Assembly: GCA_964016885.1 (NCBI GenBank)
Contig: CAXHJY010000743.1
Coordinates: 17,400-81,399, forward strand
Direction of reading: 5' to 3'
DNA length: 64,000 nucleotides
From: Eledone cirrhosa
Lineage: Eukaryota
Shown: positions 11,887 through 54,235 of the stretch, piece after piece
Numbering within the stretch: position 1 is the stretch's first letter
Layout: every line of letters starts with the position of its first letter
The notes under the pieces: generated by a model
Told to the model about the DNA's origin: nothing
Seen by the model: only the letters and a program-made list of their open reading frames with translations
The model's database searches: none
Translations under genes and position numbers: made by a program

Positions 11887-11922
<36 letters not shown>

Positions 11923-28110: not shown

Positions 28111-31100
28111 GCCCAGTGGGACAAGCATGGTGACACAATCACTGAAATTAATGGCATTGGTGATAGAGATTAAGGTTTATTCACAATCACCTTTTCTTTG
28201 ACTTCATTTTGATACTCATTACACCATGCTGATTAGTAGAAGAGGGAAGGCATCTGATTGGTCCATATCTAATCCCTTGCCAACTCCCACTACTATCCAT
28301 TATATTAAAGTGCCAATATTGGATTGTGTGTGGAGCAAATTGTCAATCACACTGAGGAAAGGGGAAAATAAGATTGTGGGTATGATAGAGCAAGAGAAAA
28401 AGAGCAGTGGTTGTGGTGGAAGCAGCAAATGCTGAAATTTTTTGTTTTAATCTCAAGTCTTATAGAAAGATGGTAAGAGTGTGTGTGTGAGAGAGAAAAT
28501 GAAAAGACATTGCTTTTTAAAACTTTGGTCACACTGTGGAAAGGTATGAGTGTGTGCAAGAGAGAGAAAGAGTGGCACTATATGAAAAATATTGTTTATC
28601 CTCAAACTATGAGTAAAATATTCCATTTTGGGAGTTTTGTCATTTTTTTAGTTTATTGAGTTTTGTATATAATATATTTCAAATGCCATATTGATCTTTA
28701 ATACTTGGTGGTTGTTTCTAATTAAGGCTTGGAATTTCTGCATGGTTATTACTTTTATCACTGATTACCATTAACACTACCACTGCAGTGGTGAAACATT
28801 GAACAGAGGAAATATATGGTAAAGAGGATTCTTTAGCCTTGTCAAGTACAAGACAACCTTTTTAGTACTCGTGCCATAAGAAAATGCACCCAGTACACTC
28901 TGTAAAGTAGCTGACAATCCAATAGACACAACTTTGATCTTGCAAAGGATATAACACCCTATCTAGGAGTGGTACGATGGTAAAATATTCCCAGTACAAC
29001 TGGTAAAGTGATAGCTTTTAGAAAAAGTATCTGGCCATAAAAACCATGCCAAATTTGGAATGTGATGTGGCACCTCAGCCCATCTATGAGGGCAGTGACT
29101 CTAAATAAAAATTGGGACTGTAAGAGCCCATGCCAGCATAGAAAACAGATGTAAAATAATGATGATGATTTCAAGGAGCCATATTAAAAATCTGAAGTCA
29201 TAAAGAGAGCGAGAGAATGAATGAGTGCTTAGGTGGGGGAGGGGGCATAATTCAGCTAAAGAAGACAAAACAAATTGGAAGTTGGTGTGTTGTTTAGACC
29301 CAGTTAAGCCCTAGGACGACCAGACTTGTGATCAAAGGTATTCCAGCAGTGACCATTCTATTTAATTCCGAGGCATAGTACATCCAGGGCTACATTATCT
29401 AATGTGTCATTCTTTTCTAAGATGGTAGTGTATGATAGAGGGAGATTCATCTGCTATTTCTAGCAAGTAGAATGACTGCACAGTCTCCCAAAAAATTTGC
29501 TATGTAGTTTGGTGGTTTACAGTTTCAAGAACAAATCTTCACATTCCTATTATATAAAAAAAAAAAATATCCAATTTCAAAACTAACAAACTATATCATA
29601 GGAATACAACAACGCAGCAAATTATAGACTCACTATATCCGACAAAATTCCCTCAAAACACACACTACCATCTTTAAAAAAGGAAGGACTCATTGGACAC
29701 TGTAGCTACTGATATACAAAAAAAAATGGGCTAATCATGGCTTGACTACCTTTGGTCATAGGTCTGTTGAATCATAATTGAACCCATGTCATTAAAGTCA
29801 AAACAATTATCAATTAAAAAATTCAGAAATATTCTCAGAACAAAATCATTTATTTAACCAATCTAATGGTCTGCTTGAGAAAAATATAAGTGGGGAAAGT
29901 GAACACTTCATTTTCGAAATAACTTTTCATCTCCTGATAGGTAATTTTTCTATCACACAATATTATGAATTTCCTTCTAGTGATGTGGATGTAAGATTAA
30001 CATGTGTTCTATTTATCTTTTCCATCCACTATAAGTGTCATGATCAAGTTCCTGTGATAAAAAAAAAAATCTCCAAGCTCTGATACCCAAGTTCTTGAAG
30101 CCAAGCAATAGCAAAGCAATGTTCAGTGTGGAAATAACAAGATTAAATATACAGATAAAAGGAAGGGCATTTTTAGTTGTTCATATCACACTGCCCAAAT
30201 ATTGCCTTTCAAATTATAGATGTATAGTTGTGTTTTAAAAATGCGTTTAAAAAAAGTAATAATTTTTTAATTGATTTTTTTTTGTTTCATAATAAATATC
30301 CACTGGACTTTCCTAAAATAATAGAAATCTAAAACTAAAAGTTCATTTATAAAATAGTGTTTAAAATGCTTACTGAAATGACATTACTTCCATTCTCATT
30401 CCTTGTCTTTGTTTATTGAGATTAGTTTATCTTAATATAATGTTATCATTGATAAATTGACTAAAATCATAGATTGCCTAAATCTAATATTTGAGCAGAA
30501 CTGTTCACAACTGTGACAATGAATGTTAAAATTTGGGTTTAATTCTTACATCACTATATCTTTATTGAAACACACATTGTTTTTGTTTAAATTAATTTTG
30601 AAAATAAAGACGAATTTAGTAAAATAACTAACAACAGTTTGGAACATAACAGAAGGTCCTTACATGAAAATTTGATATAAGGTTTTTAATTTAGATATGA
30701 ATACTTCAACATGGGGAGGGGGATTATAATAGAACAAGAGATGGTCTGAGATGGGCTAATTATTGCAAATATCCTACATTACTGCAGTTATTAAATCACA
30801 AATTAATATTGTAAGATAAAAGATATATTTCCTCAACTTCAAATAATTATAGGAAATACACATTGCAATTCAGAGAAAAAAAAAACAAAACAACTAAAGC
30901 TATAATATATTTACATGGTTTGTTAAAAAAATTAAACATTTTAAAATTCATTTCTTGTAGAATTATCCTAAATAAAAACAAATCTTCTAAAATATTAATA
31001 AACAGGATAGAAGTGGGGAGGAAGGCATTCTGACAATGAAAATTTAACCAGTGATATATCAGTTGTCTAAATCAGTTCAAATATTCAATATATAGAATCC

Positions 31101-31166
31101 TTGATAAGTGAGTCTTGAATTTTTTTTTTTTTTTTTTTTTTTTTTTCTTTTTCCAATTAAGGCAAT

Positions 31167-32269
31167 TTAGCGAAGTTTCTGAATTAAGCATTGGATCTCA
31201 GGTTTCAAAAATGATTCAGCATTATAACTACTTTCTGGCTGAGTGGCAAGAGAATTAGCTAAATCTTCATCAACAATGAAATTAACCAAAGCAGATGGTG
31301 CAAGGCCAAGTTCAATTAATGTTAAGTCCTCATCAAGTCTCTGTCCTGTTGGATTCACTAAATGGAAAAGTATCCATTCCCATTTTAAATTCTCTCGAAT
31401 AAACTGCTGCAGATCACTTAGTTTTTCTTGAGCCTTAAAGGTTCCTTGCAAGACAATGTTATCAGGAAAACGAACACGTATCATAGTGTAACGATAACGA
31501 CGCAATTCTCGTTTTTCCTCACGTGCTCGCATGGCCTTTGTTCGAAGAATTTCAACCTTCTCCAAGTTTTCATTACGTAATTGTTGCTCTCTTTTGAGTT
31601 CAGATGGAGTCAGATTATAGAAGTCATCAGTCACCTCAAAATTTGGCATGCCATGTTGACGATCATACACCTGCAAGGCTCGGTCAAGCTCAGGTCGAAT
31701 TGGTTCAGCTGTAAGAAGACAGTCTTTCATTTGGCTCAATAACTCAACATTAAGAGCATTTTCTTCTGGAATGATAAAAAACATTTCTTCAGGTTGATCA
31801 TCAACTTTTAGACTTTTCCTCTCAAAACCACATGTAATTAGAAATTCTTCACTGCCTTCGATATGGTTAACCTTTTCTTGAAAAGCTCGGTTATTAATTC
31901 GGATTTTTCTGAATTTTTCCTCACCGGGGTTGTTAATAAGGTTATCTATATATTTTGTTAAGATTTCAACACAAACCTTCACAGCTTCTTTATTCTTATT
32001 CAGAGTATGAATTATCAGTGTTGAGGCCATATGAGGGTGATTTTCAAGCAAACTATATAGGAATTCTCTGATATATTCATGTATTTCATGTTTAGGAAGC
32101 ACTGCAGGCCCAATGTTAGGACATTTAAATAAAAGGAAGGGGCAACTATTTGTGTCACCTTCATCTAATTCCGCTGAATTGACAGATGGGTTTGGAGACT
32201 GTTCCTGACATGTGGAAGCAGCAACATCTTTACTACGAACACAAGTTTTCATAGTAGGTCGTAATCCCC
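31167..32269 (-). CDS. UBXN6: UBX domain protein 6 (PUB + UBX domains), coding exon 2
   Basis: tttacag|GG acceptor in frame with ORF 31167-32252. PUB motif KYIDNLINNPGEEKFRKIRINNRAFQEKV, DDFYNLTPSELKREQ and UBX motif RVRFPD...LQGTF...LGLAPSA. Confidence 0.96.
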
Positions 32270-34527
32270 CTGTAAAAATATAACGACAACATTTAATGTT
32301 TTTAGTTTTAATAATTCATTTCTACTTTATTCTAAAGCATGAACCCAATACACTTTGTAAAAGGTTGGTAATAGGAAGGGCATCCAACCATAGAAAAAAA
32401 TGCTAAACAAAGTGTCTGTAAGACATTATAATCTCTCTAGTGATGTTGGCATGATAAAATGCAATAAGTAGAGCATATGTAAGTGAGATGTAGGCCCCTG
32501 GGCAATTGAGAGATCAGTAGCTCCAAAAGAGTACTGACTTCAACTGTGAAAAAAACAATAATGATGATATATATATATACAATGGACCCTCCTATCAAGA
32601 ACAATATATAAGTATTCAATTGTTTGATGAATTGTACAACTTACTGAATTCGCATGTAAAACTGCTGACATACACTCTTTGACATAATTCTCAAGTTGGA
32701 TCAGCATGACAAGGTTGTACCTTTGAATTACAGGTGAGCCCATCAGATAGACTTCCATCTACTTAACTTCACTAACAAGGTTGGGTCAACCTGAGGCTGT
32801 GGCAGAAGACACCCATGATGCCCTGCAGTCGGACTGAACCTGGGATCTCGTGTCAAGTAAACTTTGTAATCATTCAGCCACACCAAGTATATATATATAT
32901 CATCATAACCTTTTAACATCTATTTTCTACACTAATATGGGTTAAACGAGTTGTCCCATTGTGAGATAAGTCAAATAAAATCTTGCTCATACAAAACTAT
33001 TTCTGGCCTGGTTTCTATGGCTGGATGCCCTTCCTAATGCCAACCACATTTACAACATGGACTAGGTGCTTTTTATGATGGCATAGGATAACCAAGCCTT
33101 TTTTTTCCTCCTTTACAAAATAGTTTTCCTATGGTCAGATGCTCTTCTTTCTGCTAATACATATTTTATTTTCATGTATAGTGTATACCATAGCTCTTCA
33201 CCCATTGAATTGCTAAGCAGCATAAAGTATTGTTTATGCAGGATGTAAACAAACACCAGTGCTTGCTTTAAACGGTATTGCTATGAAGATGCACAGAAGC
33301 AGACACATACAGACACATATTTGTATCACTGTCATCCTAGCCTGGCCAACAATACAAATGCCATAGTGTTGAAATACGGTTGTGTTGATTCCACAATAAA
33401 ATGCACCTAGTCTATGTTGTGTGGTAGTGGTGGTGCCACAAGAAAATGAATCCAGTACACACTGTGAAATGGTTGCCAAAATGGAATGTATGAGCAAGAC
33501 TGTCATCTGACCTGTATGTCTAGCCACAGAATGTAACAATCCATCTAACCAATGCAAGCATGAAAAACAGACATAAAACGTTGATGGTGATGATAATGAT
33601 ATATGATGGGTATCCTCACAGAAAAAGAGAAACAAGCTCACTGATGAGACATGAACTATCTATCAATCACTTGCTAAGCAACTGTATAACTGGTTATACT
33701 AGAATGCCTGCCATTCCATTGATACCTCTCTATGTTGCACATTAGTAAAATAGCCTATTCTGACAATGCTAAATGACTGACAAATTATCTGTGAAACATG
33801 AGAGATGGAAGTGCAGAAAATATCTTTATAGTAGGTAACATCATCACCCTCATCATCATCGGTTGGACAAGTTTGAGAAAAAGGAACAATTGTTGTGTAT
33901 TATAGTCAGTAATGTAGTTGCTTGGCAAACAATAGATACAATGCCTGAGTGCTAGTGGTGCACCTATTGCATCTGTTCCATCTCATATTGGTGCTAATGT
34001 TCAATATCGTTTAAATAGTAACTATTTATTGTCTGCCTTGAACAAATTGACACTTTGTAGAAGCATAAAGACTCTTTAGTTTTGGGGAACACAAGGTAGC
34101 CTTCATAGTGCTTGGTGCCACAATAAAATTCACCTAGTATACTCTGTAAATTGGTTGACGAACAAACAGAGACAATGCAGGATCAAAAATACTTTTTAGT
34201 CTGGCCAAGGACAAGACAATCTCTCTACTGTTGATGCTATGATAAAATACATGCAGAACACATTGTAAAGTGGTTGGTATTATGAAAGGCAACCCACCTA
34301 GAAGAACAATAGTTCCCAAGAGAACTGATTTGGACCGTGATAGCCTGGTCAACTCCTGCCAGCATGGAAAGTGGACATAAAATGTTGATATTTAAACAAT
34401 AAGTTATTGGTTAAGAAAATATATGAAATTAAAAGTGAGGTAGGAAAGAAAAAAGAGAATCCTCATAATTTAGTTTTAAAGAAAAATAAAGATATAGAAA
34501 TTATGCCTTAGAATAAAAAATATATAC

Positions 34528-34741
34528 CTGATTTAGATTGATTGAACCGTGCAATTGCAGCAGCTGCAGCTCTCTGTTCAGATTCTGTTTTAGGGGCTGA
34601 CTGTGATGATGAAGAGCGAGCACATAAAGTGGAATGCGAAGTTCTCGGAGAATTTTCTTTTTCGCCAGTTAATTTATGACCAGGACCAGCTTTCTTAAAG
34701 AAGTGATCTAGTTTAATCTTATCAAAAAAGTTATTTGGCAT
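34528..34741 (-). CDS. UBXN6: UBXN6 coding exon 1
   Basis: MPNNFFDKIKLDHFFKKAGPGHKL matches the recalled UBXN6 N-terminus. VIM-like RAAAAAIAR. Phase-1 donor TCAG|gtatat compatible with exon 2. Total 438 aa. Confidence 0.93.
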
Positions 34742-34839
34742 CGTGATTTGCTTGATGAGTGGAAATATTAAAATAAAAGATTAATAATTTAGACAATTGA
34801 ATTTTTCAATTTTTAACTTTTAATCCCATGAAATTTAAT

Positions 34840-34934
34840 TTATTTGTTAGAAGTTTCAAAGTTTGTGTTGAATGATGTCTTTTCACTATAGCTAGCTTTG
34901 TTAGAAGGTTGCTGACCTTGTGGCTGGTGGATTC
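34840..34934 (-). CDS. Putative second exon of small membrane protein (GIHQPQGQQPSNKASYSEKTSFNTNFETSNK*)
   Basis: Acceptor ctttacag|GA. In frame with the phase-1 donor at 42125 and open for 31 codons to TAA at 34842-34840. Confidence 0.6.
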
Positions 34935-35454
34935 CTGTAAAGATTGGAATTTTAAAAATTGCCATTTTAAAAACAAATCACATATTCAGTATTCTTGTTA
35001 TAAAATAAATGAGTGATAATATTAATGAGTGTTTTAAACAAAAATGTTTCAAATATCCAAATAATTTGATGGAATAACTATATCATACAAAAGTGTCAAA
35101 TAAAAAGAGATTCAACTTTCTTTTTGCCATGGAAAATACCAAGAATCAAATGTAAATTAACTACCAAAATATAAAAGCTAGTGTAAATTGTTTCTAATAT
35201 AGGCATAAAGCCTATTGTGGGAGAGGATAGTGGATTATATTGACTCATGTACTAGACTGGTATTTTATTTTATCAACCCTGAAAGGATGAGAAACAAAAC
35301 TGACGACAGCTGGATTTGAACTCAAAATGTAAAGAACAAAAACAAATATCACAAGATATTTTGTCCAATCCTTTAACAATTCTAGCAATCCAAAAACATA
35401 ATCAATTAAGAAATAAAAACTTAAGTTAATCAAAAGAATAGACTCAGTACTACT

Positions 35455-35750
35455 GTACCAATGATTTCTATATGCCCTGCCAGACTGGTGAAATTGTGTG
35501 GTTGATGCGCAGCTTGAACATTTGTAGGTCAATGTCTGCAGGAAATGCATAGCTGGGGAAGCAATTGGAAAAAGTTGTAGTCCTGGGAGAAATGTTTAGT
35601 GTTGTGAAGGGAGAAGATGAGACACTGTGAAGATGATGACAGGAGAAATATGTAGGTCCAGTGAGCCTAAGAGAGTTCAGAAGAGCAGACATAGTTTTAG
35701 TAGCAACAAAAGAGGCAAACTGCTTTTGTTTTGATGAGTTCATTATAAAA
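35455..35750 (-). mobile_element. CR1-group/L2-like LINE 3' remnant
   Basis: Resembles the 36950-37620 fragment (FPADIDLQMFKLRINH). Confidence 0.45.
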
Positions 35751-36944
35751 CCACATTTCTTTACACGATTGATGCTCTACTATGCCTGTACCATTTATAA
35801 TTAGTAACATAGCATTTTATCTGAGACAATGCTTTTTAAAATTGTACTATAAGCTCCTCCTTTGTGTTTATATTTTGGCTTCAGCCTTTGACATGTTCAT
35901 AAATCACATGTTGCTAAAATATTTACAATTATTACCATTTATCAAAGTCCTGTATGTGTGTGTATATATATATCAGAGAGAAAAAAAGAGAGAGAGACTA
36001 TTTATAACTTAAAAATCGCCTTGCTAACTAGTGTAAAGCTGAAAATACTTAGTTACCTGCTTAAGGACTAAGCTGGTCATCATTTTGTTTTTTGCCAAGG
36101 TCCCAGTTTTCCAGTGATGTGAGGTGGGATTTGAACTTAGAATATACAAAGCTATAATAGATACTGTAAGGTAACCCATCTGATGTGCTAACAATTCGTC
36201 TAATCCACCTCCCTGGATTGGTATTTTATCAACCCCAAAAGGCTGAAAAGTAATGCTGGTCTCAGTAAAATTTGAATTCTGGGCATAAACAGCTAAACAA
36301 ATAATTACAAGGCATTCTATCGAATGATTTTGCCAATTTACTGTCTATTACAGTAATACCTTCTTCGTGTTACCCTATTGAGCACTGATTTGTAATAACA
36401 CTCTTTCCTGGAAATTAATATTTTCACCTTATCATAAACATTCATATAAAAAAATCTGACCATTTTGTCTTGCAACTAACTCTTTCTTCATTTTTTAGAG
36501 TGGGAGAGAAAGATGATGATGATAAAATAAAACAGAGAAAAGAAAAAGATGTTGAAAAATGAACATACTATCAAAGTGGGAATGAGAAAGAGTGTAAACA
36601 GGCATTTGAGGTAAAAAAAAAAAAAAAAAAGGTCATTTTCTTGTGCTCTACTGTCTGTCCTTTTACTCTCCCCTTTTTTCTCTGCCTCACACTATTCCTT
36701 CCTCTCCCTTTCTCTGTACTTTGGAGCATTTTTTTTTTACTCTGCATGTACATCAAAAATTATTTCATTGAAAAAAAGAAACAATATGTATATGTACATA
36801 CATATGTATGTAAATATGTTTGTGTGGAGGCGATGCATGTGTGATTGCAAACATTCTTACTTGTATGCATACACACACACAAATACATATATACACACAT
36901 TAAACGGTATACATTTCGTAGAATTTTTTTTTTTTTATGCCTGG

Positions 36945-37620
36945 AGGCGCTCTTAAATTGAGGAGATTGAATCTGTTGATATTCAGTTTAAATTGATGCA
37001 AGTTGACTTCTACAAGAAAGGCATGTACAGGGAAAGAATAATAGAGGGATAACATTCTGGGGAGGAAAGACTGGGCATAGTGGTTAGAGAAAGACCTGGA
37101 TGACTTAACAAAATATAGATGAGAGGAGGGGCAAGTGAGGTTGGTATGTCTAAGTGAAAGTTGTTGGAAGTCAGCCATATTCAAGGAGCAGAGGCCACTG
37201 TAGTATAATTAGAAAAAGTAGCAAGAGGAGAAAGAACATCCGTAAGCCAGAAGCAGGACTGTGTCTGTTAGTGACTATGCCAATCAGACAAGTGACCTTT
37301 TTCTGGATGCATTCTAGGATGATTGTGTGTGGCAGCAGCTCCATCCCAGATGAGGGAACAGTACTCCATTATGGGTGTTACCTGAGCTTTGCAAAGGATC
37401 AGAGGTTGTTAAGGGCTGAAGTAATTTTCTGGTTTTAAAAAGAAGAGTCTTTCTGATACACATGCTAGTTATGTTTAGGATGTGCATTTGCGATGAAAGA
37501 TCCTTAGTGAAAGCAAGGCTGAACATTTGAAGTGAATGTGCGAGCTCTAATTGCATGCTGTTCATGTTTAATGGTGATGAAGTGCGATGCAGTTTTAGTT
37601 CTATATACATACAATCAAAA
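36945..37620 (-). mobile_element. CR1-group (L2/Crack-like) LINE fragment
   Basis: Minus-strand MEYCSLIWDGAAA motif, LSLRH...LYF and FPVH..VNLHQFKLNINR C-terminus. Confidence 0.7.
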
Positions 37621-38984
37621 AGCAAATGAACAATAACAAAATGAATCAGATCTTTCACTGATTTGGTTTCAGTCATTCAACTGGAGTGCTGTCATACTTG
37701 CGAACGTCTTAATGAGTTTCAGACATCATATTGATCCCAGTACTCGTTTCAATCTGTTGCTCATTTTATCGAACTACTATGTTATGGGACAAAAGCAAGA
37801 ACATAGACATGGATACACGCATTGAATACAAGTGCTGATTTTCAAATAATATATTTGTACAGAGTTGCAATTAATTTCCAAAGAATTAGCCAACTGAACC
37901 AAAGAATTACTAAGCAACTTCAAGTACGCATTTTAGAGGTTTGCCAAAAATTGCAATTGGTTATTATGGCAGAAACTCACTTGCACAAAAACTCAAGCTA
38001 CAGCTTTTCTTTTAACCTGCCACCCCTATTCCATCTGCATCATACTACTTTTATAATAACTATCACAATCACAACTATTTTCTTAAACACTATCCATTAA
38101 AATGCGCGGATAGCATCAAGGAATAACCTAAGACCTGGCTCGCAATAAAGATGGATGGAGTAAAGGAAGTGATACACTGCTCTACCATGCTGTAATCCCA
38201 CGACGCTGGGAGGAAAATGCATGTTTTTGACAAAATAAATTATCACCAACCAACAGTACATAAGGCGAGGGTGGGAAAACAAAGGAGTTTCTACAGTGGC
38301 AGACAATTCTTCCACTGATCACATATTATTGTCTTTAAAAAAAGACACGTTTGGATAGTCCTATATATACAGAAAGACGGTATGGTGACGAATACTTTTG
38401 ATCTTAGGTTTGTTCAATCAGAGTTGACCTGATGCTAAACAATAACTTTAGCTATTATTATTCTGTCATGCTACTTATGATACATGCTCAATTCATTCTT
38501 ATTTACAGAATGTTCAAATTGTACAACAGCAGTTTGATAATTCACCAGTTACTAGCTAATGCCTATTTATTATTGTTGTTTTTTTTTCAGTAACTTGATC
38601 GGAGGAAGAAGGGTAGCGCGTATGACACTTTTCAAAGTCCCTGGGTATGGAAAAAATTGCAAGTGTGGACTCCGCTAAAGGCACCAATTAGTGGTGTTAA
38701 AATGATTAAATCGGCTAGTTAGGAACAGTAACAGTCCGACGGGCTTACACCCAGTTTCCACCTACTAAATTTCACTCACAAGGCTACCGCAGAAGACACT
38801 TGCCCAGAGTAATGTGTAGGGAGGATAAATACTAAACCATGCTGTTACGGAGTCAACTTCTTGACCGTAACAGCTATGTCTGCGCATAGGCCTAATGCGT
38901 AATCATAAGCATCGAGCTTAGGATTACAGCCTATCCTTTATAGAGAAGCATGCTCCCAAAATACATTTACTTCATTATAATTTC

Positions 38985-39440
38985 CTGGAAACGTTCGGTG
39001 GATTTGGGCTACTGACAGCGAAGTTCTTGTCTTCACTGGCAGCTCGCCTTACTGAGGTGTCAGGTAATGCCCGTGAGGGTGCCTGGTTATTTCAGAGCCT
39101 TAGCCTCGCCATCACCTGTGGTAATGCTGCGAGCATGTTGGCTTGCCTGAAAGTGTACAATTAACCCCCAAGGTGTGAGGTGTTGCCGCTTGTCGCACTT
39201 GGTGAATTGCCTCCTCCTTTCTTTTCTTCTTTTTCCTTCTTTCTTACCTTTATCATTTTTGTTCATGATTTTATATGTTATGTTATTTATGTATATATTT
39301 AAAACATATTTGCAACGTTATTCTACTGTAAATTTATACAACTGTAATAAAATATGTGACCAATTAAGTTAACGGAATAAAGAATACACATCATAAACAC
39401 ACACACACATCATAAACGCACACGCACATCATAAACGCAA
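38985..39440 (+). mobile_element. 3' end of a CRE-like (restriction-like endonuclease) non-LTR retrotransposon
   Basis: 38985-39164 translates LETFGGFGLLTAKFLSSLAARLTEVSGNAREGAWLFQSLSLAITCGNAASMLACLKVYN*. Followed by AATAAA and an (ACACATCATAAAC)x3 tail. Confidence 0.7.
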
Positions 39441-41194
39441 ATTAGTTTCAAGTAAATGAATCTACCGTTGTTGTTATTTAGTCACAGGTTAGCCCTTTTA
39501 GAGCAGGCACAACTATGATCAAAGACTATTCCAGTTATGACCAGATCGTATGTTCTTCCATACACCGAACAAGTTTACTCCTTCGACAATACGGTAGAGC
39601 GTGGTTTGAAGAAAAATTGGCTGCTGTTTCTAACGTGTCAAGCGACCGTGTAGAGGCTTCATCAGCGGATCACACAGAAGATATTTCATTCCATGATAAC
39701 ATAAAAAGCAGATCACAGTCTTCTTTATGCTTTCATGGGCGAAGTAATATAATTCTGTAGCTGCGTAAATGTTATTGTAATAGACATTACAATAAATACG
39801 TAGTAATTAGAGTTGAGAGATAACCGCTATGACTAAATATAATTGAGTGTTGCTGCTGTTGTGTAAAACCCATGTCAGCTTTCATCGAGCAGGCATATGG
39901 TCCTGTCGTCATAAATTGCCGCGTTATTGTATTATTTTAAGTGTATGCATAAAATATTTTCTAATACATACATATCTGTGTCTGAAAGATGAGGGGAAGA
40001 GGGGAAATTTGTGCATAGACAACATATCGACTACTGTTTGCTTCTTTTTTTTTTTTTTTTAAACTGTTTTAGGGTTTCCTTAAACGGTTAACACGTGGAA
40101 CAAGTTCAAGACGCAAATTACTACCAATAACTCACTGAAATAATTTAAATAACCTGATTGTTATTGTGTACCAGTCATATGACATGATTTGATCAGGTGA
40201 GACACCAGTTGAAACAAATAAGCTGGAGTCATTATATGTAATCCATGCTGTTATTAGGATATTGACAGAAACTCATTTAAATACATTCGGTTCACTGCAT
40301 AGTGTAAATTGGTAAAAGTGAATTCAAATATATACAAATGTCTAATATATATATTTATTATACACTAATCTCCGCGTACTACTTTATAAATATCTAACTA
40401 TGTAACATATTTTCGATTTTTATTTTCTTACAAAATGTGTAAATATTTCAGTGTACGACACTAAAATAATGATTTTGACTAAGTTCGCTTAAAAGCAGAT
40501 TTTATAGAACATATCACCTTAGATATATCAACATCTGACCGGTATAGATTTTATTTACTTCTGATGACTACTTTTTTTTCGCATGGCTATTAACTTCCTA
40601 AGTGTATCGAATGTCAAGAAAAATGAGTTAGATCGATTAACACAAAATAGAGCCAATACAATTACTTTTCTGCAAAATTCAACAGTGGCGTTATGCCTTT
40701 AAATAAAGTATCCAAGGATATCGGAGACGACTATACCTTGTCATAAATAATGGATTACTTACGTGTACTATTTATATGAAAAAGAAATTATAACATTTTA
40801 ACCTTTCGCCAAAAAAAGACTCTTCTCAGTCTTTCGTTTTTCACTTTCCGACATGGGGGGGGGGGGGGGAAATCACCGGATTTTTATTATAGTTTCATAC
40901 ACTGAAAAATTGAGACCATCTAATTACACACTACACTAGAACATTTCTGTTATTTATATATATATATATAATTCAAAGTAAAAGATATATGTGTATATAT
41001 ATATCCAAGAGAATACACAATATATTGTATATATACAAAGCACATATTTCAGATGGAAACAATATTGTTTCTTTCTCTCTCTCTATATATATATTTATTT
41101 TAAAGAGTTAAACAAGATTCAATGAGTACATCAAAGAATGAGTTTTACAGTAGATTGAAAGCACTCTACAGTATGATATTTTCCAGAGTTATTA

Positions 41195-41463
41195 ATATTA
41201 AATTCAAATATTAATAAAATAGATGTTATTGTGATTAATTAAATTTTATTATACATATTTCAGAGGTACTTGAATCAAGTTCAATAGTACGTCCTCATCA
41301 CTACCTTGATTAAATCTTAACCATTTAACATGTCAGGGTATATCATTTTATTTTATCTGACGAGGACGTACTATTGAACTTGATTTAAGTACCTCTGAAA
41401 TATGTATAATAAAATTTAATTGATCACAAGAACATCCATTTTATTAATATTTGAATTTAATAT
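41195..41463. repeat. ~106-bp inverted repeat (Penelope-like/retrozyme-type terminal repeat)
   Basis: Arms 41195-41300 and 41358-41463 are reverse complements with a few mismatches. 57-nt spacer. Confidence 0.9.
41350..41415 (+). ncRNA. Type I hammerhead ribozyme motif
   Basis: Stem I ATTTTAT/ATAAAAT; CTGACGA core 41357-41363; stem II GGACGTAC/GTACCTCT; GAAA 41397-41400; quasi-palindromic minimal stem III ATATGTAT; UA cleavage site at 41407-41408. Confidence 0.65.
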
Positions 41464-41641
41464 ACACACATATCTTTTACTTTTGAATTATTATAGCTCT
41501 GGACTAAGTCTATTGAGCTTTTTTATTGAGAAGCACAAAAATCAAACATATTTTATGTTTTGATACCTCACATTTTGTATATTTCCGTGTACTAGTTTAT
41601 AAATACCTACTTTCATTTTTTTTCTTGCGACGTGTGGTATG

Positions 41642-42027
41642 TAATTATCTACTCTAAATATTTTCGCGGATGACAGTAAAATAATGATTTTGACCAGAGA
41701 TTATATCGTCTTATTCAATATATTTGACTGGTATAGGTTTTATTTACATCAGAACAGACTGTGACGATTATTTTAGAGGCAGTCCTGAAACTGAAACGGA
41801 ATTTCCAAAGTGAATGTCTTTAACTTTGCAAATTAAAAGTTGTTTACATATATATATATATATATACACACATTCACTAATCGTCGGTCTATTGTGGGTT
41901 AAATAAAACATATACCAGTCATATATGTTGAGTAAAGCGATATGTTCTATATAATCTTTCTTTGAGCGAACCTGGTCAAAATCATTATTTTACTGTCATA
42001 CGCAGAAATATTTAGAGCAGATAATTA
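41642..42027. repeat. Inverted repeat pair (41642-41746 / 41900-42027); third direct copy at ~40370-40557
   Basis: Shared AATAATGATTTTGAC and GACTGGTATAGGTTTTATTT motifs. Confidence 0.7.
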
Positions 42028-42124
42028 GACAACACACACATATATATATATGTGTATGTATATAAATAGGATAGTAATGGCGGAGGGGAATGATTGTTGA
42101 TAATTCATAATTTCCAGAACTTAC

Positions 42125-42434
42125 CTGATCGTACGAACAGGTCGTTTATGTTAAATCCGTACACAAGCCATGCCAAATGGATGAGAACGATAGTTATGAA
42201 GAAATAAGCAAGCAATCCAAGCAAAACCCTCACTTGAACAGGACTGTTCACAAAGCACAGCCGACCAGGTCCATATGTTGTGTCGCTACTAGCCAAGGGG
42301 GTGTCGCCCTGGTCTGAGTTTGAGATCCCAACAACCGATTGCAATACACCTTCAGCACACGATATAATACGTTCTGGTTTTAGGTAGTCGTATATAATAC
42401 GGTAATAAGTGTTCAACTGATTCCAGTTAGACAT
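42125..42434 (-). CDS. First coding exon of an unidentified single-pass membrane protein
   Basis: 103-codon ORF, GC-richer than its flanks, TM helix VLLGLLAYFFITIVLIHLAWLVYG. Consensus donor CAG|GTAAGT. CCAAT-like motif ~90 bp upstream. Confidence 0.72.
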
Positions 42435-42826
42435 ACCAGGGAAAACTTGGTTGTAACTTAAATAAAAATTACGTACTAGGAGTAAACATGCAAAACCCGA
42501 TTAGTTTTAATAGCGGAGATGCGATTGGTGGGAATGTTTGGCAACCTTAGTTATCGACCTTCTTACAATTACCTCCCTTCCACAAGTCTTCCATCAGTAA
42601 TTTTACAAAAACATTAATGGAATTATTATTTTGTGTAAGAGTTATAATAGACATTTAAAATACATGTATATCATTACAATTTTGCTTTATTTTGTAATTA
42701 TGCTATACTGTTTTGTTGTACATCTACGATCTGGTTACTGACACAATTTCACTGCAAGAAAGATGTAGATAAATTACGTGATAGATGAACAACAAAATCT
42801 CTTGACACTTTATATTATATGTTGAT

Positions 42827-42900
42827 ATGTGTAGGAGATTAAATATGAAATCATCACCATATTATGTGTAGGAGATTAAATATGAAATCATCACCATATT
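42827..42900. repeat. Perfect 37-bp tandem duplication
   Basis: ATGTGTAGGAGATTAAATATGAAATCATCACCATATT x2. Confidence 0.95.
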
Positions 42901-43374
42901 GTTTTCTTTTTGAATCCATTACTCTTTCAGAACAATGAATCTACACCAAGAAAGTCTTGCTTCAGTCCCGTTAGCAAAGCAATGTTAGCAGAGGCCAAGC
43001 ATAGGAGTAACAGTTCTATCTGCAGTGACTGTGTTTGAAGGCAGTCTGCCAGTTTTATCTTGGTGCTGTTTTTGATTGAGTATGCTTCTCTTCAACAACA
43101 AACATCAGCTTCTTCTATTACCTTGTTAAACTCTTGTCTAATTCTAACCTCTAGTGAAAGCCATCACTTGCAATATCAAGAGGAGACTGACAGAAAAATA
43201 TTGCTTTACTTTCTGCAGCTGGGTGCCATTTCTAACACCCACTTTACAGAGTGTGCTGTGTGTATTTTATATCGTGACACCAGCACCAGAGAGGTTATGA
43301 CCTCGGCAAAAGTAAGGAATCATTTCTCCATTCATTTGCCAACTGCTTTAAAGAGTGCACTGGGTACATTTTAG

Positions 43375-46300
43375 CATCACCGTTTAACATTCATTTTCCG
43401 CACGATGGCCTGATTTAGACGAGTTGTCCCGTTGTGAGACAAGTCAGATCAAATAACCATGTCTTGTTCACACACTGTTACTGGCTTGGTTTCTACAGTT
43501 AGACGCCCTTCCTAATGTCAACCCCATTTACAGCATGGACTGGGTGCTTTTTATCGTGGCACCAAAACTACCAACTGACTGGATGCTTTTTTGTCATGTC
43601 ACCAACACGACCACTTTACAAAGTGGGCTGAGTGCTTTTCTCGTGCCACCAACACGACCACTTTACAGGGTAGACTGGATGCTTTTTGTTGTGTCACTAA
43701 TAGGACCACCTTGCAGTGTGGGTTGGGTGCTCTTTCACTAGCATGAATACCTATGATGGACTAGGGTCCTTTGTTGCGTAACCAACATGACCACCTTTTC
43801 GGTGGATAGACTGAAAAGGGCACACAATGACGCTCATACACCCGAGCCACAAATACCCCAATCTTTCTCTCTTGTGCATACACCTGCTCCTTCTGCCCCA
43901 CCTTCACCTACATACAAGATTACGACCCGTTCCGGTCGGAGAGTCCACTGGCCCAAAAAGTTCTGCCAAACTATTTTTATGTGAACTGGCCACTGGAGCC
44001 TTTTTTTTTTTTTTGCTGTTCTTGTTATTTATTGATTTATTGTATTACAATGTACCTCTCATTACCATTTCACTGGATGTATATATATGTTTTTCGTTTC
44101 CTTTTACAACGAACATTTTAAAAGAAATTTGATTTTTTTTTACACATTTCGACACAAACACTTCTTTTCGCTGTATCTCAACTATTGCTTATTCTTTCCA
44201 CCAAGCTATATTCTTCTATTTGCCGGTTTAAAAATTTACCACGTAAATTTGCCGTTGAAAACTGCGCATTTATTCAGAATGCTTATTTCTCTGGTCGCTG
44301 GCCTCTTGACCCTTCCAGGTCAACGCATTCACAACATCAACAACAACACAGCTTCATCAACAACCAAAACCAGCAGAACAAGCCAGAGAATTTATTTCTG
44401 CAGCACTCTTCCTGTGAGAAATTCTCTTCGGAAGTTGGAAATTTCACGTTATACCACAGACCAGAAACCACCTGCATTCATTCTCTGGAACACATTCTTT
44501 CCTGCTGTCATGTGATTGCACACATGTGAACTGTATTTTGAACTTTGACCTCTTCTCTTCCTTTGATTACATTGTATCATAATTTTCATGCCTCTTACAT
44601 GCTCGCCATCTTACTCCATGCATGCTTCATTCGATTTTTATGTTTTAAAAATCTGGCGGGAGATAATGTAGCAAGAGTTGCCTCCCTTATGATAATCTCA
44701 TCACCGCTCTCTAGACAGGAAGTAGCTGGAGTTGCTTCCCTTTGGGGGTGACAGACTCCCTGTTGGTCACTTCCGGTCAGACCCTATAAAAGGAACAGGT
44801 TAGGACGATATCTCTCTCTCTCGCCTCCTGAATTCCAAAGTGGTAACACCTGCGACCATAGCATGAGATGATTCCTTTCTCATAATCCTTCGCCACCAAG
44901 AAGAATGCAACCGGCAGCCTAAGAGCCTAAGAAGATGTTAACACCTCCTAGAGAAGATCTCTGTTCTTCTCTACACACTTCAGCCTAGGAGTTGTGATCC
45001 ACGGGTAATGATTCATTTATATTAATCCCTTTGACTTCTGTGAAGTAAAAACATTGTCACAACACACACCGGCATTTATTGTCTTTTGTAATAATTTTAT
45101 ATGTACACCGATACCAATCTCCTAAACCTATGATGGACTAGGGTCCTTTGTTGTGTCACCAACATGACCACCTTATAGAGTGGGTTGGGAGCTTTTAGCT
45201 ATTTCAGAAGCATTGTGGGGGAGCATGTCTAACTTTCCGTTTCTTGGGTTAGACGAGAGAGGTGTATCAAATGTGGAAGGTGAGGGGGAGGTATGGTGCA
45301 TGTATGCAGGATGGGGATTGAAGAGGTAGATCTAAGGTGGGGTACTTAGCTGGTGATGGGTGGAGTTTTAAGATGTGGGAAGTGTTGACAAAGTGCTTTT
45401 TGTTATGGGAGCGGGGAGCAGATTTGGACCATATTTTACTTTCCACACTTGTAGGTAGGGGTTGATTGTGATCAGAGAGGTATTATGGGAGCGTCTATCG
45501 TGGGGAGGGGAAGGAGTATGCAAGTTGGACATGAATGAGGGGAGTGGGGTATTTTGTTGATGAGGGCAAGGATATTAAGACTAGGGAAAGTGAATGGGGA
45601 GAGGATGGAAACGCTAGTTGCAGGCTAGTACCCTGTATATGGTTGTTTTACCCTATGCATATGAAGGCAGGTCTTCTGCAGTACAGCATAAGGCCAGAGA
45701 AGTCGTTCCTTTGAGAGATTTAATTGTGCACGGTCAGCTTTTATCACTTCATCCCAAGCTTTTCTAGGTCTTCCTCTTCCATAGCTACCATCAACATTGT
45801 ACGCACTGTACCTTTTATACATCTGTCATCTTTCATATACATCACATATCCATACCACCTTAATCTCCTTTCCTGCACACTATCTAATCCCCCATATGCC
45901 CAGTTTCTCTTTGTTCATTTATGCTTTGTCCTTCATGCATACTACTATTACACATCCATTGAAGCATGGAAGCTTCATTTCTTTCCAATCTTCGTAGTTC
46001 CTCTGCACACAGTGTCCAGGTTTCACTTCCATGCAACATTGTTGTTTGTACACAAGCATCATACAATCTGCCTTTCATTTTGAGGGGAAAACCCTTTGTA
46101 GTTAGCAGTAGATGGTAGCTCTCTGGACTTTTCCTCCTGTTCTCACTCTGGCTACAGTACTTTCAGAACACCCACCTCCACTGCTAATTTGGTCACCCAA
46201 GTAACAGAAGCTGTCGACTACTTCTACGGAGTCCTCTGAACATTTAATAGAGCTTGTTTCTTGTAAGCTCATGCTGCTTATTGCTCCTGTGCCTCTACAA

Positions 46301-47520
46301 CATATAAAACCTACATTCTTTGCTAGCCTGCCTGAGATCCCCCTACATCTTTTGTATACCCATAGTGTGCATTTGAGACATAAGATGGAATTTCTACTCA
46401 CTCCTTTCCTGCACACAGAGTATGGTTATTTTCCTGAAAGAATCAAGGTCCTGTTTTCTTTCTACTCAATAGAACTTTAGTCTAAACTATGCTTCTAGGT
46501 CAGGAATTGCTAACAACAGATCTCTAATCCCCCCCCCCCTGCACTCTAAATTCCTCACTATAATCATTGTTAATTCTAAACTTGCTGACTGCTCCTCTTT
46601 ACAAGGCTTGAACAGCACTCACAAGCTACTCATCTACACCTAGTCTTCTAAAAGCCCACTAGAGTGAGAGATTTTTTCAAAAGCTTTCTCCAGGTCAACA
46701 AACAACAAGTAGTGGGGCTTATTTTTAGTTAGGTATTTTTAGTAAGGAAGAGGGCATCAGTGGTACTTTTACCTGGCACAAATCCAAACTTTATCTCATC
46801 TAGATTAATTCAGTCCCTAATCAGCTGTGCAATAATTCTGTAACTTTCATGATCTGGCCCGTCAACTTGATGCCTCTATAGTTTCTTCTGCCCTTGTAGT
46901 AATTGACAATGCTGCTGCTATGCCAGTCATTGGGTATGACAACATTTTGTAATACCTGGTTTACAATACGAGTAGTTATCCATCCCAGATGCTTTCAGCA
47001 TCTCAGCAACTACTCCTGATGGTTCAGCTGATTTACCTATTGTCATATCCTTAATTGCCTAACTTACTAGACTGCTGCTAACTTGCATGGCTAGTCCCTC
47101 TATTGGGTTGACTTGGGGCAAGCTATCTTTCTCACATGCATTTTCCTCATTCAGCAGTCTCTCATAATGGTACATCCATGCTACTTTCTTTTCAGTGTTA
47201 GTGAGGGAAAGTGCACCATTGTCGTTTTAGACACACTTCTCTCCAACAACATCACAGTTTTCCTTGCAATCTTGAACACCTCATGTCACAAAATATGCTT
47301 AAATTTTCTATTTTCATCTTGCTAAGTATCCTTGCTAAGTATACTTGTCGCTTACCTTCTTTCCTGATAAGCTTCTCTGCTCCCCCTCATTTTGCCATTC
47401 TTTTTATGCTTGTTTGTTTTTACTTAATTGCCTCATCCACCCTACTATTCCACCACCAAGTTACTCTTCTTCTCCCTGGAGCTTTGCTCCAGCCACAGAT
47501 CTCGTTTGCCTTTAGCAGAT
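43375..47520 (-). mobile_element. Long decayed RTE LINE, interrupted in its 3' UTR by a Gypsy fragment
   Basis: Tail at 43375, ~45-bp UTR minisatellite 43520-43800, GRPRKAW, MLHGSETW, PHD-like segment (46102-46416), DLEKAF, GKSAEPSG. Confidence 0.9.
43798..45125 (+). mobile_element. Gypsy/Ty3 LTR retrotransposon 3' fragment (integrase tail, PPT, 3' LTR)
   Basis: SVDRLKRAH...TTRSGRRVHWP integrase C-terminus. Purine tract GGCGGGAGATAA, then TGTAGC LTR start at 44667. TATAAAA at ~44785. Confidence 0.8.
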
Positions 47521-52371: not shown

Positions 52372-54056
52372 TAATATAATAATTAAATTATTGTGTACAG
52401 TGCTCAGGTGCACTACAACTTGTCAAAGGTGCATGTATAGTACATAGAAAATGTCAGGGAAGTGAATAGTGTATGAGTCATGATATACATGTGTGCGGGT
52501 GTATGGAGGGGGAATATTAGGTGTAGTGTTGGCGAATCTCAGGAAGCATGGAGGTTTTAAAGGATGCAGTGTCTCGACAGCTAATAACTGATGCAGGTAG
52601 TTTGTTCCATGCTTCAGCAACTCTGAGTGTGAAAAAATGTTTCTGAAAGTCATGAGATCTGTGCTGTTTTCTGACTTTGTGGGTATGCCCACGTGTGTTA
52701 GACACATGGAAATCAAAAAGGTACTCAGGGTTGTTGTTGGCAACATGGTTAATAATTTTGTGGGTGTTTACCAAGTCAGTTGCCAGACGTCGGAGCTTCA
52801 ATGTAAGTAAGGTGTTCAGAGTATGGTAGATGCCTGATGGAGGTATTCGCTTGGTTGCACGTCTCTGAACAGTTTCCAGGCGGTCAATGTTCTGAGCAAG
52901 ATAGGGGTTCCAGACTGGTGATGCAAATTCTAAGTGTGGCCGCACCATAGCTATATACAGCTTTAAATAGATAGCTGGAGAGTGGCTGACAAAGGTCTTT
53001 CTGAGTGATGTTAAGACACCCTCGGCCTTCTTGACAATTTTAGAGACGTGCCTCGTCCAACGCAAATCGCTGCTGACCGTAATGCCCAGGTCACGTTCAC
53101 AAGAAGACTTCTTGATATTAGTGTTGTGGAGGGAGTATGTGGACGCTGGGTTTTTACTCCCAAAATTCATAGTGGTGCACTTGTCCACAGCTACCTTGAG
53201 TTGCCAATCTGTGATCCATTGTTGCATTGTGTCCAGGTCAGATTGCAGGCAAGATCTATAGTGTTCAGGATCTGTCCTTTTTATCTCAAGGTACAGCTTG
53301 ATGACATCTGCATATTTCAGTACTGTGGCATTCTTTAAGTTGGCATCTATGTCATTAATATATGCCACAAACAAAAGGGGGCCAAGAACAGATCCCTGTG
53401 GTACACCAGATGACATCTCATATGGTGAGGAATGCTGTCCTAGAACCATGACTACCTCTCTTCAACTGAGAATGAAGGACTTCAACCAGTTAAAAAGATC
53501 ATCCTTCACACCCATTGCAGAGAGTTTTGCCATAAGTCTTTTGTGTGGCACAGACTTGAAAGTTTAGCAAAGTCAAGGTTAACAACATCCACTCATGAGC
53601 CGCCATCAGTGATCCGGGTGATGTCTTCAAGAAACTCGATAAGTTGATCACAGCAGCTGGAGTTAGGGATAAATCCAAATTGCGAAGGCTGGATAAGACT
53701 GTGAGAGTTCCAGAAGTTCCAAAGCGTTTCTCTGACACAGGATTCCATCAGTTTGCAATGCAGCTAGTAAGACTGACTGGACGATAGTTCACAGGTGATG
53801 TGCGGTCACCCTTTTTGAACAGAGGAATGACACTGGCAGTTTTCCACTGTTCTGGAGTAGCACCGTTGTTCAAAAAGAATTGGAAGAAGCGTGATAACTG
53901 GTGCAGAAGGAGGTACCCACCACGTTTGAGAAGCAGGTACGTAACACCATCAAGACCAGGAGAGGCATGGTTGCATTTATGTTTAAGCATTGCAGGTGTA
54001 TATTCCATAGTTGAAAAGTGAAGCATGTTGAGGTTAACAGTTGAACACGTGACCAC
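52372..54056 (-). mobile_element. CR1-clade LINE, 5'-truncated
   Basis: NYRPVSLTS, SGVPQGSVLGPLLF, YAD(V), ERDLG, VRPHLEFASPVWNP and TRGH..K motifs. AT-rich tail at ~52372. Confidence 0.95.
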
Positions 54057-54235
54057 CAGTTTCCTAGTCTAGTACGCTAGCCAATGACCCCCAACAATTT
54101 TAGGGGAGAGGAATGTCGATTAAATTGACCCCAGTGCATTACTGGTGCTTTATTTTATCGGCCCCTGTAAGGATGAAAGGCAAAATTATACTTCCATGCT
54201 GCCTTCTGTTTGGTTTCAGTCAAGGCAAGTGCACA

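What the first reader, a model, noticed from the sequence alone, without database searches (positions are those of the whole stretch)
31167..42434. Candidate bicistronic mRNA: unannotated 134-aa membrane protein upstream of UBXN6
Seen: minus-strand ORF 42434-42125 (103 codons, one TM helix) ends at a consensus phase-1 donor. The strong acceptor just upstream of UBXN6 (34934) continues this frame for 31 stop-free codons to TAA at 34840. The UBXN6 ATG (34741) follows 98 nt later with no AATAAA and no obvious donor in between; a 7-codon mini-ORF (MGLKVKN*) lies in the gap. Known: UBXN6/UBXD1 is a p97/VCP cofactor acting at endolysosomal and mitochondrial membranes and has no TM segment. Inference: one transcript encodes both proteins, with UBXN6 translated by reinitiation or leaky scanning. 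The small protein could be a co-expressed membrane partner (speculative).
Basis: partly seen in the sequence, partly recalled or inferred. Interest (0 to 1): 0.8.

Follow-up and report, generated by a model that had tools for sequence, protein, structure and literature searches.

The report
Ancient TCTA-UBXN6 two-protein messenger RNA
In this octopus a small membrane protein of the TCTA family is encoded just ahead of the protein-recycling cofactor UBXN6, likely on one messenger RNA; flies have a catalogued two-protein mRNA with what appears to be the same pair, so the arrangement likely dates from the common ancestor of insects and molluscs.

Summary
The 134-aa protein is not an orphan. It is the cephalopod TCTA: 6 of 6 orthologues tested pass Pfam PF15128, and it lies next to UBXN6 in Octopus vulgaris and Argonauta. 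In run X4, one spliced contig carries the TCTA C-terminal codons, its stop, the 98-nt spacer and the whole UBXN6 CDS. The exon 1-2 junction was not seen directly. ATG is the most depleted of 64 triplets between the two start codons (3 against 9.0 expected), a leaky-scanning signature. Drosophila UBXN6 (Gint3/armless) is a FlyBase dicistronic gene with CG42306, whose peptide matches the octopus membrane segment by eye (13 of 37 identical, ungapped). Best reading: a bicistronic TCTA-UBXN6 mRNA inherited from the protostome ancestor; human TCTA instead sits beside RHOA. The kind is known. The molluscan case, the TCTA identity and the age were not found in print. A physical TCTA-UBXN6 partnership is untested.

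The parts
42125..42434 (-). Coding part of exon 1: TCTA-family ORF, codons 1-103 plus one base; phase-1 donor CAG|GTAAGT
   Evidence: Pfam PF15128 E 4.3e-5, 23.7 bits, below the cut-off of 27 on this piece; orthologues pass
42159..42233 (-). Predicted single transmembrane helix (residues 68-92), followed by the conserved W-x-x-Y-G-x-x-I-x-[DE]-x-F-[VI]-R block
   Evidence: hydropathy; invariant columns; low-confidence model of the O. vulgaris orthologue has helix 65-103
42248..42274 (-). Out-of-frame short ORF inside the TCTA CDS (8 codons), stop 316 nt before the UBXN6 ATG in the spliced model
42151..42171 (-). Out-of-frame short ORF inside the TCTA CDS (6 codons, strong context GGC ATG G), stop 219 nt before the UBXN6 ATG
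34935..42124 (-). Intron 1 (7190 nt, GT-AG), inferred; junction not observed directly in this species
   Evidence: orthologous spliced proteins P0001, P0002, P0005, P0008; contig start at 34937 fits an upstream exon ending in non-A + CAG
34528..34934 (-). Shared exon 2: TCTA C-terminus, stop, spacer and UBXN6 N-terminus
   Evidence: X4 record 9 covers 34937-34527 without gap or other letter
34840..34934 (-). TCTA codons 104-134 and TAA stop (poorly conserved polar tail)
34839..34844 (-). AATAAA overlapping the TCTA stop; possible poly(A) signal for a TCTA-only mRNA (ATTAAA also at 34839 and 34824)
   Evidence: use not tested
34742..34839 (-). 98-nt AU-rich intercistronic spacer
34806..34829 (-). 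7-codon mini-ORF in the spacer, stop 64 nt before the UBXN6 ATG
34528..34741 (-). UBXN6 coding part 1 (ATG in ACG ATG C context)
   Evidence: matches the N-termini of P0011 and P0132
32270..34527 (-). Intron 2 (2258 nt, GT-AG), the only intron in the UBXN6 CDS
   Evidence: joint present in X4, absent in X1
31167..32269 (-). UBXN6 coding part 2 (PUB and UBX domains) to TAA
   Evidence: single match in G000; tree
31120..31152 (-). 33-nt genomic A-run 14 nt after the UBXN6 stop

Best explanation
The locus encodes a TCTA-family membrane protein (134 aa) whose last coding exon also holds the start of the p97 cofactor UBXN6 (438 aa), so both are likely made from one three-exon mRNA, likely inherited from the common ancestor of molluscs and insects. 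Shown: the two ORFs, the shared exon, the exon 2-3 splice, the TCTA family match of the orthologues, adjacency in other cephalopods, and ATG depletion between the starts. Taken from print: the fly UBXN6 orthologue is dicistronic with an upstream 121-aa membrane peptide. Inferred: the exon 1-2 splice in this species; homology of the fly peptide (by-eye alignment); and the mechanism. In that mechanism most scanning ribosomes start at the TCTA ATG. A fraction leak past it through an ATG-poor path, are at most briefly caught by three 6-8-codon ORFs that allow reinitiation, and start UBXN6. TCTA thus acts both as a protein and as a dampener that sets UBXN6 at a lower, fixed ratio.
For: (1) X4 record 9 (1556 nt) runs 34937-34527, splices GT-AG to 32268 and continues to 31161 with no other letters or gaps; the joint is absent from X1. 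(2) The contig begins exactly 3 nt into the intron, the length of the suffix (CAG) shared by exon 1 and the intron; the 42125 donor was the only match to my donor pattern in 34935-46000. (3) 3 ATGs in the 500 nt between the starts, against 8.9-9.0 in dinucleotide shuffles (P 0.007); ATG is the most depleted of 64 triplets; 0 of 220 500-nt blocks of the window have 3 or fewer; the UBXN6 CDS is not depleted (28 against 29.3). Such depletion before ORF2 marks algal leaky-scanning bicistrons (PMC11892635, passages). (4) Consecutive accessions in O. vulgaris (CAI9716141/142) and in both Argonauta copies (GAB1597387/388; GAB1600917/916). (5) Spliced TCTA P0008 and spliced UBXN6 P0134 both have a longest contig of 4034 nt (1 of 56 pairs, rough chance 2%). 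(6) Gint3 is 'all di/polycistronic' with CG42306, 5 nt stop to start (PMC4528330 File S1). The uORF-mORF association is seen in ESTs out to Aedes, Ka/Ks 0.10 (PMC2276209). Gint3/armless is the UBXN6 orthologue (PMC4219662). (7) By eye, the fly peptide aligns ungapped to octopus residues 67-103 with 13 of 37 identities; Q, W, Y, G, I and F are invariant at the same spacing in 6 of 6 dipteran and 9 of 9 cephalopod sequences; rough chance 6e-5 to 8e-3.
Against: The exon 1-2 junction was not seen in this species. X4 is not on record as RNA; I infer it from the splice. A contig is not a molecule, and the tool warns that a contig across two genes shows no single transcript. AATAAA overlaps the TCTA stop, so a TCTA-only mRNA is possible. 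The TCTA ATG has a purine at -3 (GGT ATG T), so it is not plainly weak, and one internal ATG has a strong context. The ATG shortage inside TCTA comes from having no Met and from NAC-over-NAT codon choice (20:6, against 18:49 in UBXN6). Given those codons there is no further depletion (codon shuffle P 0.52; synonymous resampling P 0.057), so first-exon composition could contribute. The fly peptide was not scored by any aligner or against Pfam. No TCTA sequence or locus from other molluscs, annelids or non-dipteran arthropods was obtained, so continuity between flies and cephalopods is inferred from two end points. FlyBase authors state that most fly dicistronic pairs do not meet the requirements of scanning.
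Confidence: 0.65

Rival explanations
1. One bicistronic mRNA, but UBXN6 is reached mainly by reinitiation after TCTA termination or by internal entry in the AU-rich spacer, not by leaky scanning.
For: The spacer is short (98 nt here, 5 nt in the fly) and AU-rich. The TCTA ATG has -3 G. FlyBase authors favour non-scanning routes for most pairs. ATG scarcity near a stop is also expected under reinitiation (PMC11892635).
Against: The ATG shortage extends over the whole 400-nt TCTA CDS, far from the stop (2 ATGs). Internal Met is nearly absent from cephalopod TCTA (2 of 702 residues in 5 sequences against 43 of 2171 in 5 UBXN6) and absent by eye from 6 of 6 dipteran peptides. Reinitiation after a 134-codon ORF is generally inefficient (own knowledge).
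Confidence: 0.17
2. Two separate, overlapping transcripts: a TCTA mRNA ending at the AATAAA over its stop, and a UBXN6 mRNA from its own start site within exon 2 or another first exon.
For: AATAAA at 34844 and two ATTAAA. Contigs cannot show starts or ends. O. bimaculoides has a modelled UBXN6 isoform with a different N-terminus joined to the large exon (P0131).
Against: The contig is unbranched through exon 2, with no listed joint at the AAG near 34750. ATG depletion across TCTA has no purpose if ribosomes never scan it to reach UBXN6. All fly transcripts are annotated dicistronic. A minor TCTA-only isoform is compatible with the best explanation.
Confidence: 0.11
3. The octopus mRNA is bicistronic, but it arose independently of the fly's: the upstream peptides are unrelated membrane proteins, or the genes became neighbours twice.
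For: The fly-octopus similarity is short, lies largely in a hydrophobic segment and was not scored. The C-terminal tails differ (conserved in Diptera, variable in cephalopods). Cephalopod queries retrieved no insect protein.
Against: Six invariant residues share exact spacing, including W, Y and G. The same partner gene and order by chance is improbable. The Atlas places a 117-aa arthropod cluster between two chordate TCTA clusters (scores 0.83-0.84, a lead only).
Confidence: 0.07

Closest known systems
Drosophila CG42306-Gint3/armless (CG5469) dicistronic locus (FlyBase, PMC4528330 File S1; Hayden and Bosco 2008, PMC2276209)
   Same: Small single-pass membrane ORF upstream of the UBXN6 orthologue, same order, non-overlapping; same W-x-x-Y-G-x-x-I-x-[DE]-x-F block by eye; no internal Met in the upstream ORF.
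   Different: Spacer 98 nt with a mini-ORF, against 5 nt; a 7.2-kb intron splits the octopus upstream ORF (the whole fly locus spans 3.1 kb); conserved dipteran C-terminal tail absent; published conservation reached only Diptera; the passages read do not identify the fly peptide as TCTA.
Human TCTA (T-cell leukemia translocation-altered; Pfam PF15128)
   Same: Family match of the membrane segment and following residues; small membrane protein of unclear function (PMC4439957, whole text; PMC11905932, passages).
   Different: Human TCTA is head-to-head with RHOA (PMC5765235, passage), not upstream of UBXN6 (on another chromosome; recalled). The cephalopod protein has a longer N-terminus with two predicted amphipathic helices.
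Green-algal leaky-scanning bicistrons (PMC11892635)
   Same: AUG depletion before ORF2; short inter-ORF; ORF2 start with -3 A.
   Different: There the mechanism was shown by mutation and Ribo-seq; here it is inferred, and ORF1's context is not clearly weak.
STREMI-SLC35A4 'gene symbiosis' bicistron (PMC13303939)
   Same: Conserved membrane microprotein upstream of an intron-poor main ORF; both genes exist independently elsewhere.
   Different: UBXN6 keeps one intron here. In that case the two proteins lack direct functional interdependence, a caution for the partner idea. The main text has no occurrence of TCTA or UBXN6.
MOCS2A/MOCS2B bicistron
   Same: Bicistronic mRNA conserved across distant animals: the only one of 44 fly pairs traced to 'Coelomata' in PMC2276209 Table 1.
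   Different: MOCS2 encodes two subunits of one enzyme and stays bicistronic in vertebrates; no shared complex is known for TCTA and UBXN6, which are separate in humans.

Membership tests
TCTA (Pfam PF15128) | Score at or above Pfam's gathering cut-off (27 bits): window protein | tested here: inconclusive
   The exon-1 piece alone (103 aa) scores 23.7 bits, E 4.3e-5, the only family hit; the spliced 134-aa form was not scanned.
TCTA (Pfam PF15128) | Score at or above the cut-off: orthologues | tested here: met
   6 of 6 cephalopod orthologues scanned score 27.7-33 bits; the closest two are 86% and 80% identical to the window protein.
TCTA (Pfam PF15128) | Small protein with a membrane helix | tested here: met
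   Hydropathy peak 2.54; helix 65-103 in a low-confidence model (mean pLDDT 50.9).
UBXN6/UBXD1 | PUB plus C-terminal UBX domain | tested here: met
   PF09409 87 bits, PF00789 24 bits, both above cut-off.
UBXN6/UBXD1 | Orthology to named UBXN6 proteins | tested here: met
   Groups with Octopus and Argonauta UBXN6 (100/99) in a 30-row tree that broadly follows animal phylogeny; single match in G000.
FlyBase-type dicistronic locus (CG42306-Gint3) | Both complete ORFs on one processed mRNA | tested here: inconclusive
FlyBase-type dicistronic locus (CG42306-Gint3) | Stop-to-start distance within the range of obligate fly polycistrons (-34 to 319 nt) | tested here: met
   98 nt; range from PMC4528330.
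FlyBase-type dicistronic locus (CG42306-Gint3) | Upstream ORF homologous to the fly peptide | tested here: inconclusive
   By-eye ungapped match, 13 of 37 identical, six shared invariant positions; no scored alignment.
FlyBase-type dicistronic locus (CG42306-Gint3) | No monocistronic alternative; both ORFs translated | not testable with these tools
   Needs long reads, CAGE, 3'-end sequencing and Ribo-seq; protein conservation implies TCTA translation.
Leaky-scanning bicistron (green-algal type) | AUG depletion before ORF2 | tested here: met
   3 against 9.0, rank 1 of 64 triplets, 0 of 220 control blocks as low; not beyond codon choice (P 0.52).
Leaky-scanning bicistron (green-algal type) | Weaker start context at ORF1 than at ORF2 | tested here: inconclusive
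   CCTGGT ATG T against ATCACG ATG C; no octopus Kozak matrix was built.
Retroposition-derived bicistron (STREMI-SLC35A4 type) | Intronless downstream ORF | tested here: not met
   One intron at codon 72; the remaining 367 codons lie in one exon, apparently also in other spiralians.

The most novel reading that the evidence does not exclude
TCTA is an unrecognised membrane partner that recruits or regulates UBXN6-p97 at endolysosomal or mitochondrial membranes. The two have been co-translated from one mRNA for the whole history of protostomes, and the separated human genes still work together, which would give the orphan human TCTA a function in p97-dependent membrane protein turnover.
Probability: 0.2. 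Interest if true: 0.78.

Novelty: new member of a known kind. Interest (0 to 1): 0.5.

Why it matters
Bicistronic mRNAs shared between animal phyla are rare: in the fly survey only 1 of 44 pairs was traced beyond arthropods (PMC2276209 Table 1). A TCTA-UBXN6 mRNA in both flies and cephalopods would be another such case, and one that is split in humans. It gives a concrete guilt-by-association lead for TCTA, a human gene of unclear function, towards the p97-UBXN6 pathway linked to multisystem proteinopathy (PMC6098094, passages). It also flags a hidden gene in invertebrate annotations. And it means that RNAi against invertebrate UBXN6 would knock down both proteins.

Tried and rejected
Run search: no RNA holder listed; 4 runs of unrecorded kind, 1 study. 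Read laying covered only 30300-39000, so exon 1 and its junction are uncovered. AlphaFold model of the O. vulgaris orthologue was poor (pLDDT 50.9, pTM 0.22), so no fold search was run. PDB sequence search: 4 matches, all E 0.52 or worse. Atlas: no hit for the window piece; leads under 0.9 for P0001. Homologue searches reached cephalopods only; P0006 is a repetitive false hit. Metagenome scan: 1 locus of 111 candidate stretches (L003), rejected as a chance match with no membrane segment and no UBXN6 on the contig. Fused TCTA-UBXN6 gene models: none among the 140 proteins then held; lengths above 634 aa were not searched. A second copy or processed parent gene: one match each in G000. Recent retroposition of UBXN6: not supported, since the single large exon appears widespread and one intron is present. 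The bacterial promoter scan does not apply. EndoMAP paper: 'TCTA' occurs only inside a guide sequence, 0 in the supplementary files searched. Literature: TCTA with UBXN6 gave 0 papers; CG42306 gave 2.


Full report
1. Observation. The minus-strand ORF starts at 42434, runs 103 codons plus one base to CAG|GTAAGT at 42125, and joined to the acceptor at 34934 gives 134 aa ending at TAA 34842-34840. It has one strongly hydrophobic segment, about residues 68-92. The UBXN6 ATG is at 34741, 98 nt later, with a 7-codon ORF at 34829-34806 in between. UBXN6 is 438 aa from exons 34741-34528 and 32269-31167, with PUB and UBX domains above Pfam's cut-offs. One claim fails: AATAAA is present at 34844-34839, overlapping the stop, with ATTAAA at 34839 and 34824. 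A 30-row UBXN6 tree places the window with Octopus and Argonauta (100/99). G000 gave one match for each protein.

2. The small protein is TCTA. The exon-1 piece hits only PF15128 (T-cell leukemia translocation-altered), at E 4.3e-5 and 23.7 bits, under the cut-off of 27. Orthologues exist in O. vulgaris (86%), Argonauta hians (80%) and unnamed squid-like records (45-56%). All 6 of the orthologues scanned (of 11 held) pass the cut-off, at 27.7-33 bits. Across 9 aligned sequences 38 columns are invariant: 16 of residues 1-36, 0 of 37-58 and 22 of 59-103. The spliced orthologues continue past RSG into a polar tail like the one exon 2 encodes here, which supports the exon 1-2 splice. The searches reached no non-cephalopod homologue. 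The Atlas offers two chordate TCTA clusters and a 117-aa arthropod cluster at 0.83-0.84, a lead only.

3. Transcript evidence. Runs X4 and X1 (2 of the 4 listed; kinds not on record) were laid on 30300-39000. X4 holds one 1556-nt contig covering 34937-34527, spliced over 2258 nt (GT-AG) to 32268-31161, with no other letters. Its depth is 91.7, against 3.3-8.8 for the listed intronic contigs. X1 lacks this joint. I infer that X4 is RNA. The contig therefore carries TCTA's last 31 codons, its stop, the spacer and the entire UBXN6 CDS. It starts 3 nt before the acceptor, exactly the suffix (CAG) that exon 1 shares with the intron, and the 42125 donor was the only match to my donor pattern in 34935-46000. 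No joint at the weak AAG near 34750 is among those listed (53 not shown).

4. Linkage in other cephalopods. TCTA and UBXN6 have consecutive accessions in O. vulgaris (CAI9716141/142) and in both Argonauta copies (GAB1597387/388, GAB1600917/916). In the unnamed squid-like records, spliced TCTA P0008 and full-length UBXN6 P0134 both have a longest contig of 4034 nt. That is 1 exact match among 56 pairs, rough chance 2%: suggestive of one transcript contig, not proof.

5. Translation signature. The 500 nt between the two ATGs hold 3 ATGs. Dinucleotide shuffles give 8.9-9.0 (P 0.007), and ATG is the most depleted of 64 triplets (z -2.6). The UBXN6 CDS is not depleted (28 against 29.3). Of 220 500-nt blocks of the window, 0 have 3 or fewer; of 132 GC-matched blocks, 0. 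Internal Met is 2 of 702 residues in five cephalopod TCTAs, counted from the conserved start (the upstream extensions of P0008 and P0140 were dropped), against 43 of 2171 in five UBXN6 proteins; these sequences are related, so the counts are not independent. The three remaining ATGs each open a 6-8-codon ORF ending 316, 219 and 64 nt before the UBXN6 ATG. Against: inside TCTA the shortage follows from no Met and NAC-over-NAT usage (20:6 against 18:49); codon shuffling shows nothing further (P 0.52) and synonymous resampling is borderline (P 0.057). The TCTA ATG has -3 G, and one internal ATG has a strong context.

6. The fly locus. FlyBase's list (PMC4528330; passages and part 1 of 6 of File S1 read) gives Gint3 and CG42306 as 'all di/polycistronic', unrelated, 5 nt stop to start. 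Hayden and Bosco (PMC2276209; passages, part 1 of section 5, parts of supplements 1-2) report a 121-aa conserved uORF of CG5469/Gint3, Ka/Ks 0.10, linked to the main ORF in ESTs out to Aedes. I take this uORF to be CG42306 from the shared locus. CG5469/armless is the functional orthologue of human UBXN6 and binds Ter94/p97 (PMC4219662; passages; its Text S1 was not read and may discuss CG42306). By eye, the fly peptide aligns without gaps to octopus residues 67-103 at 13 of 37 identities. The pattern Q-x21-W-x2-Y-G-x2-I-x-[DE]-x-F-[VI]-[RK] holds in 6 of 6 dipteran and 9 of 9 cephalopod sequences. A binomial estimate over 85 offsets gives 6e-5 to 8e-3. No scored alignment or Pfam scan of the fly peptide was run. 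None of the six dipteran peptides shows an internal Met (by eye; two are partial). An earlier, unchecked AI note reports the same pair 57 nt apart in a springtail (e1-7496371); I did not test the springtail claim and do not count it as support.

7. How it likely works. One promoter upstream of 42434 (start not mapped) gives a three-exon mRNA. Most ribosomes make TCTA. Some leak past its ATG, traverse the ATG-poor CDS, may translate a 6-8-codon ORF and reinitiate, and start UBXN6 at ACG ATG C. The result would be co-expression with UBXN6 held lower; in flies mild armless overexpression is dominant-negative, so a dampener is plausible. A TCTA-only isoform using the AATAAA may coexist. Shown: ORFs, shared exon, second splice, family, adjacency, ATG depletion. 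Inferred: first splice here, single molecule, scanning route, common ancestry. Odds: bicistronic about 0.87; same origin as the fly locus about 0.85; leaky scanning dominant about 0.7 if bicistronic.

8. Is TCTA a partner of UBXN6? Untested. For: long retention on one mRNA, and UBXN6 acts at lysosomal and mitochondrial membranes (PMC6098094; passages) without a membrane segment of its own. Against: RNAi on the fly mRNA should deplete both proteins, yet Armless or human UBXN6 alone largely or fully rescued and CG42306 did not. FlyBase says only a few unrelated pairs are known to be functionally linked. STREMI and SLC35A4 share an mRNA without direct interdependence (PMC13303939; passages). Human TCTA is head-to-head with RHOA (PMC5765235; one passage) and its function is unclear (PMC4439957, whole text; PMC11905932, passages).

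9. Novelty. Animal dicistronic mRNAs, and this pair in Diptera, are known. In ten searches of the held library I saw no paper joining TCTA with UBXN6 (0) and none on a molluscan case; only the top 12-30 listings were seen for the broad searches, subscription journals are missing, and databases such as FlyBase may already list CG42306 as the TCTA orthologue. Verdict: real; a new member of a known kind, with an unreported family identity and a likely protostome-wide age. Interest 0.5.

Noticed in passing
window 34840-34528 (-): The TCTA stop lies 312 nt upstream of the exon 2-3 junction, which by the exon-junction rule (own knowledge) would look like a premature stop; UBXN6 translation clearing the junction complex could protect the mRNA.
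   Followed up: no
window 34850-34806 (-) against P0001: The O. vulgaris TCTA C-terminus (ending NFMD) resembles a different reading frame of this window (NFMG), so the stop position has shifted and the mini-ORF's ATG would be TCTA's last in-frame Met there; the mini-ORF is probably not a conserved element.
   Followed up: partly
P0001 cluster and P0011 cluster: RefSeq UBXN6 proteins of O. sinensis and O. bimaculoides cluster with O. vulgaris UBXN6, but the O. vulgaris TCTA cluster has 1 member: TCTA may be hidden in their annotated 5' leaders.
   Followed up: no
P0004, P0007, P0008, P0009, P0139, P0140: Six unnamed squid-like TCTA gene calls begin 29-55 codons upstream of the conserved start; three of them end in an unspliced read-through tail, like the window's open frame past the donor.
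   Followed up: partly
14 ENA proteins from contigs over 20 kb: All 14 align as one ORF from UBXN6 residue 68-158 to 418-437, with bivalve-, gastropod-, annelid- or cephalopod-like best hits, which suggests that the single large exon is old; the selection favours intron-poor genes.
   Followed up: partly
window 31120-31152: 33-nt A-run just after the UBXN6 stop, where the X4 contig ends; the nearest downstream AATAAA is at 30566.
   Followed up: no
window 15467-15772 and 20104-20415 (+): Exons of an amino-acid transporter (Pfam Aa_trans) converge on the UBXN6 3' end.
   Followed up: no
window 1-8500: Over 8 kb of (TA)/(TG)-type microsatellite, GC about 13%.
   Followed up: no
window 8813-9644, 11053-11940, 13854-14246, 17263-19040, 45884-46425, 52517-54068: Transposon fragments: LINE-like reverse-transcriptase pieces (RVT_1 hit at 52520-53461) and a DDE-transposase-like piece (by eye; no Pfam hit).
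   Followed up: no
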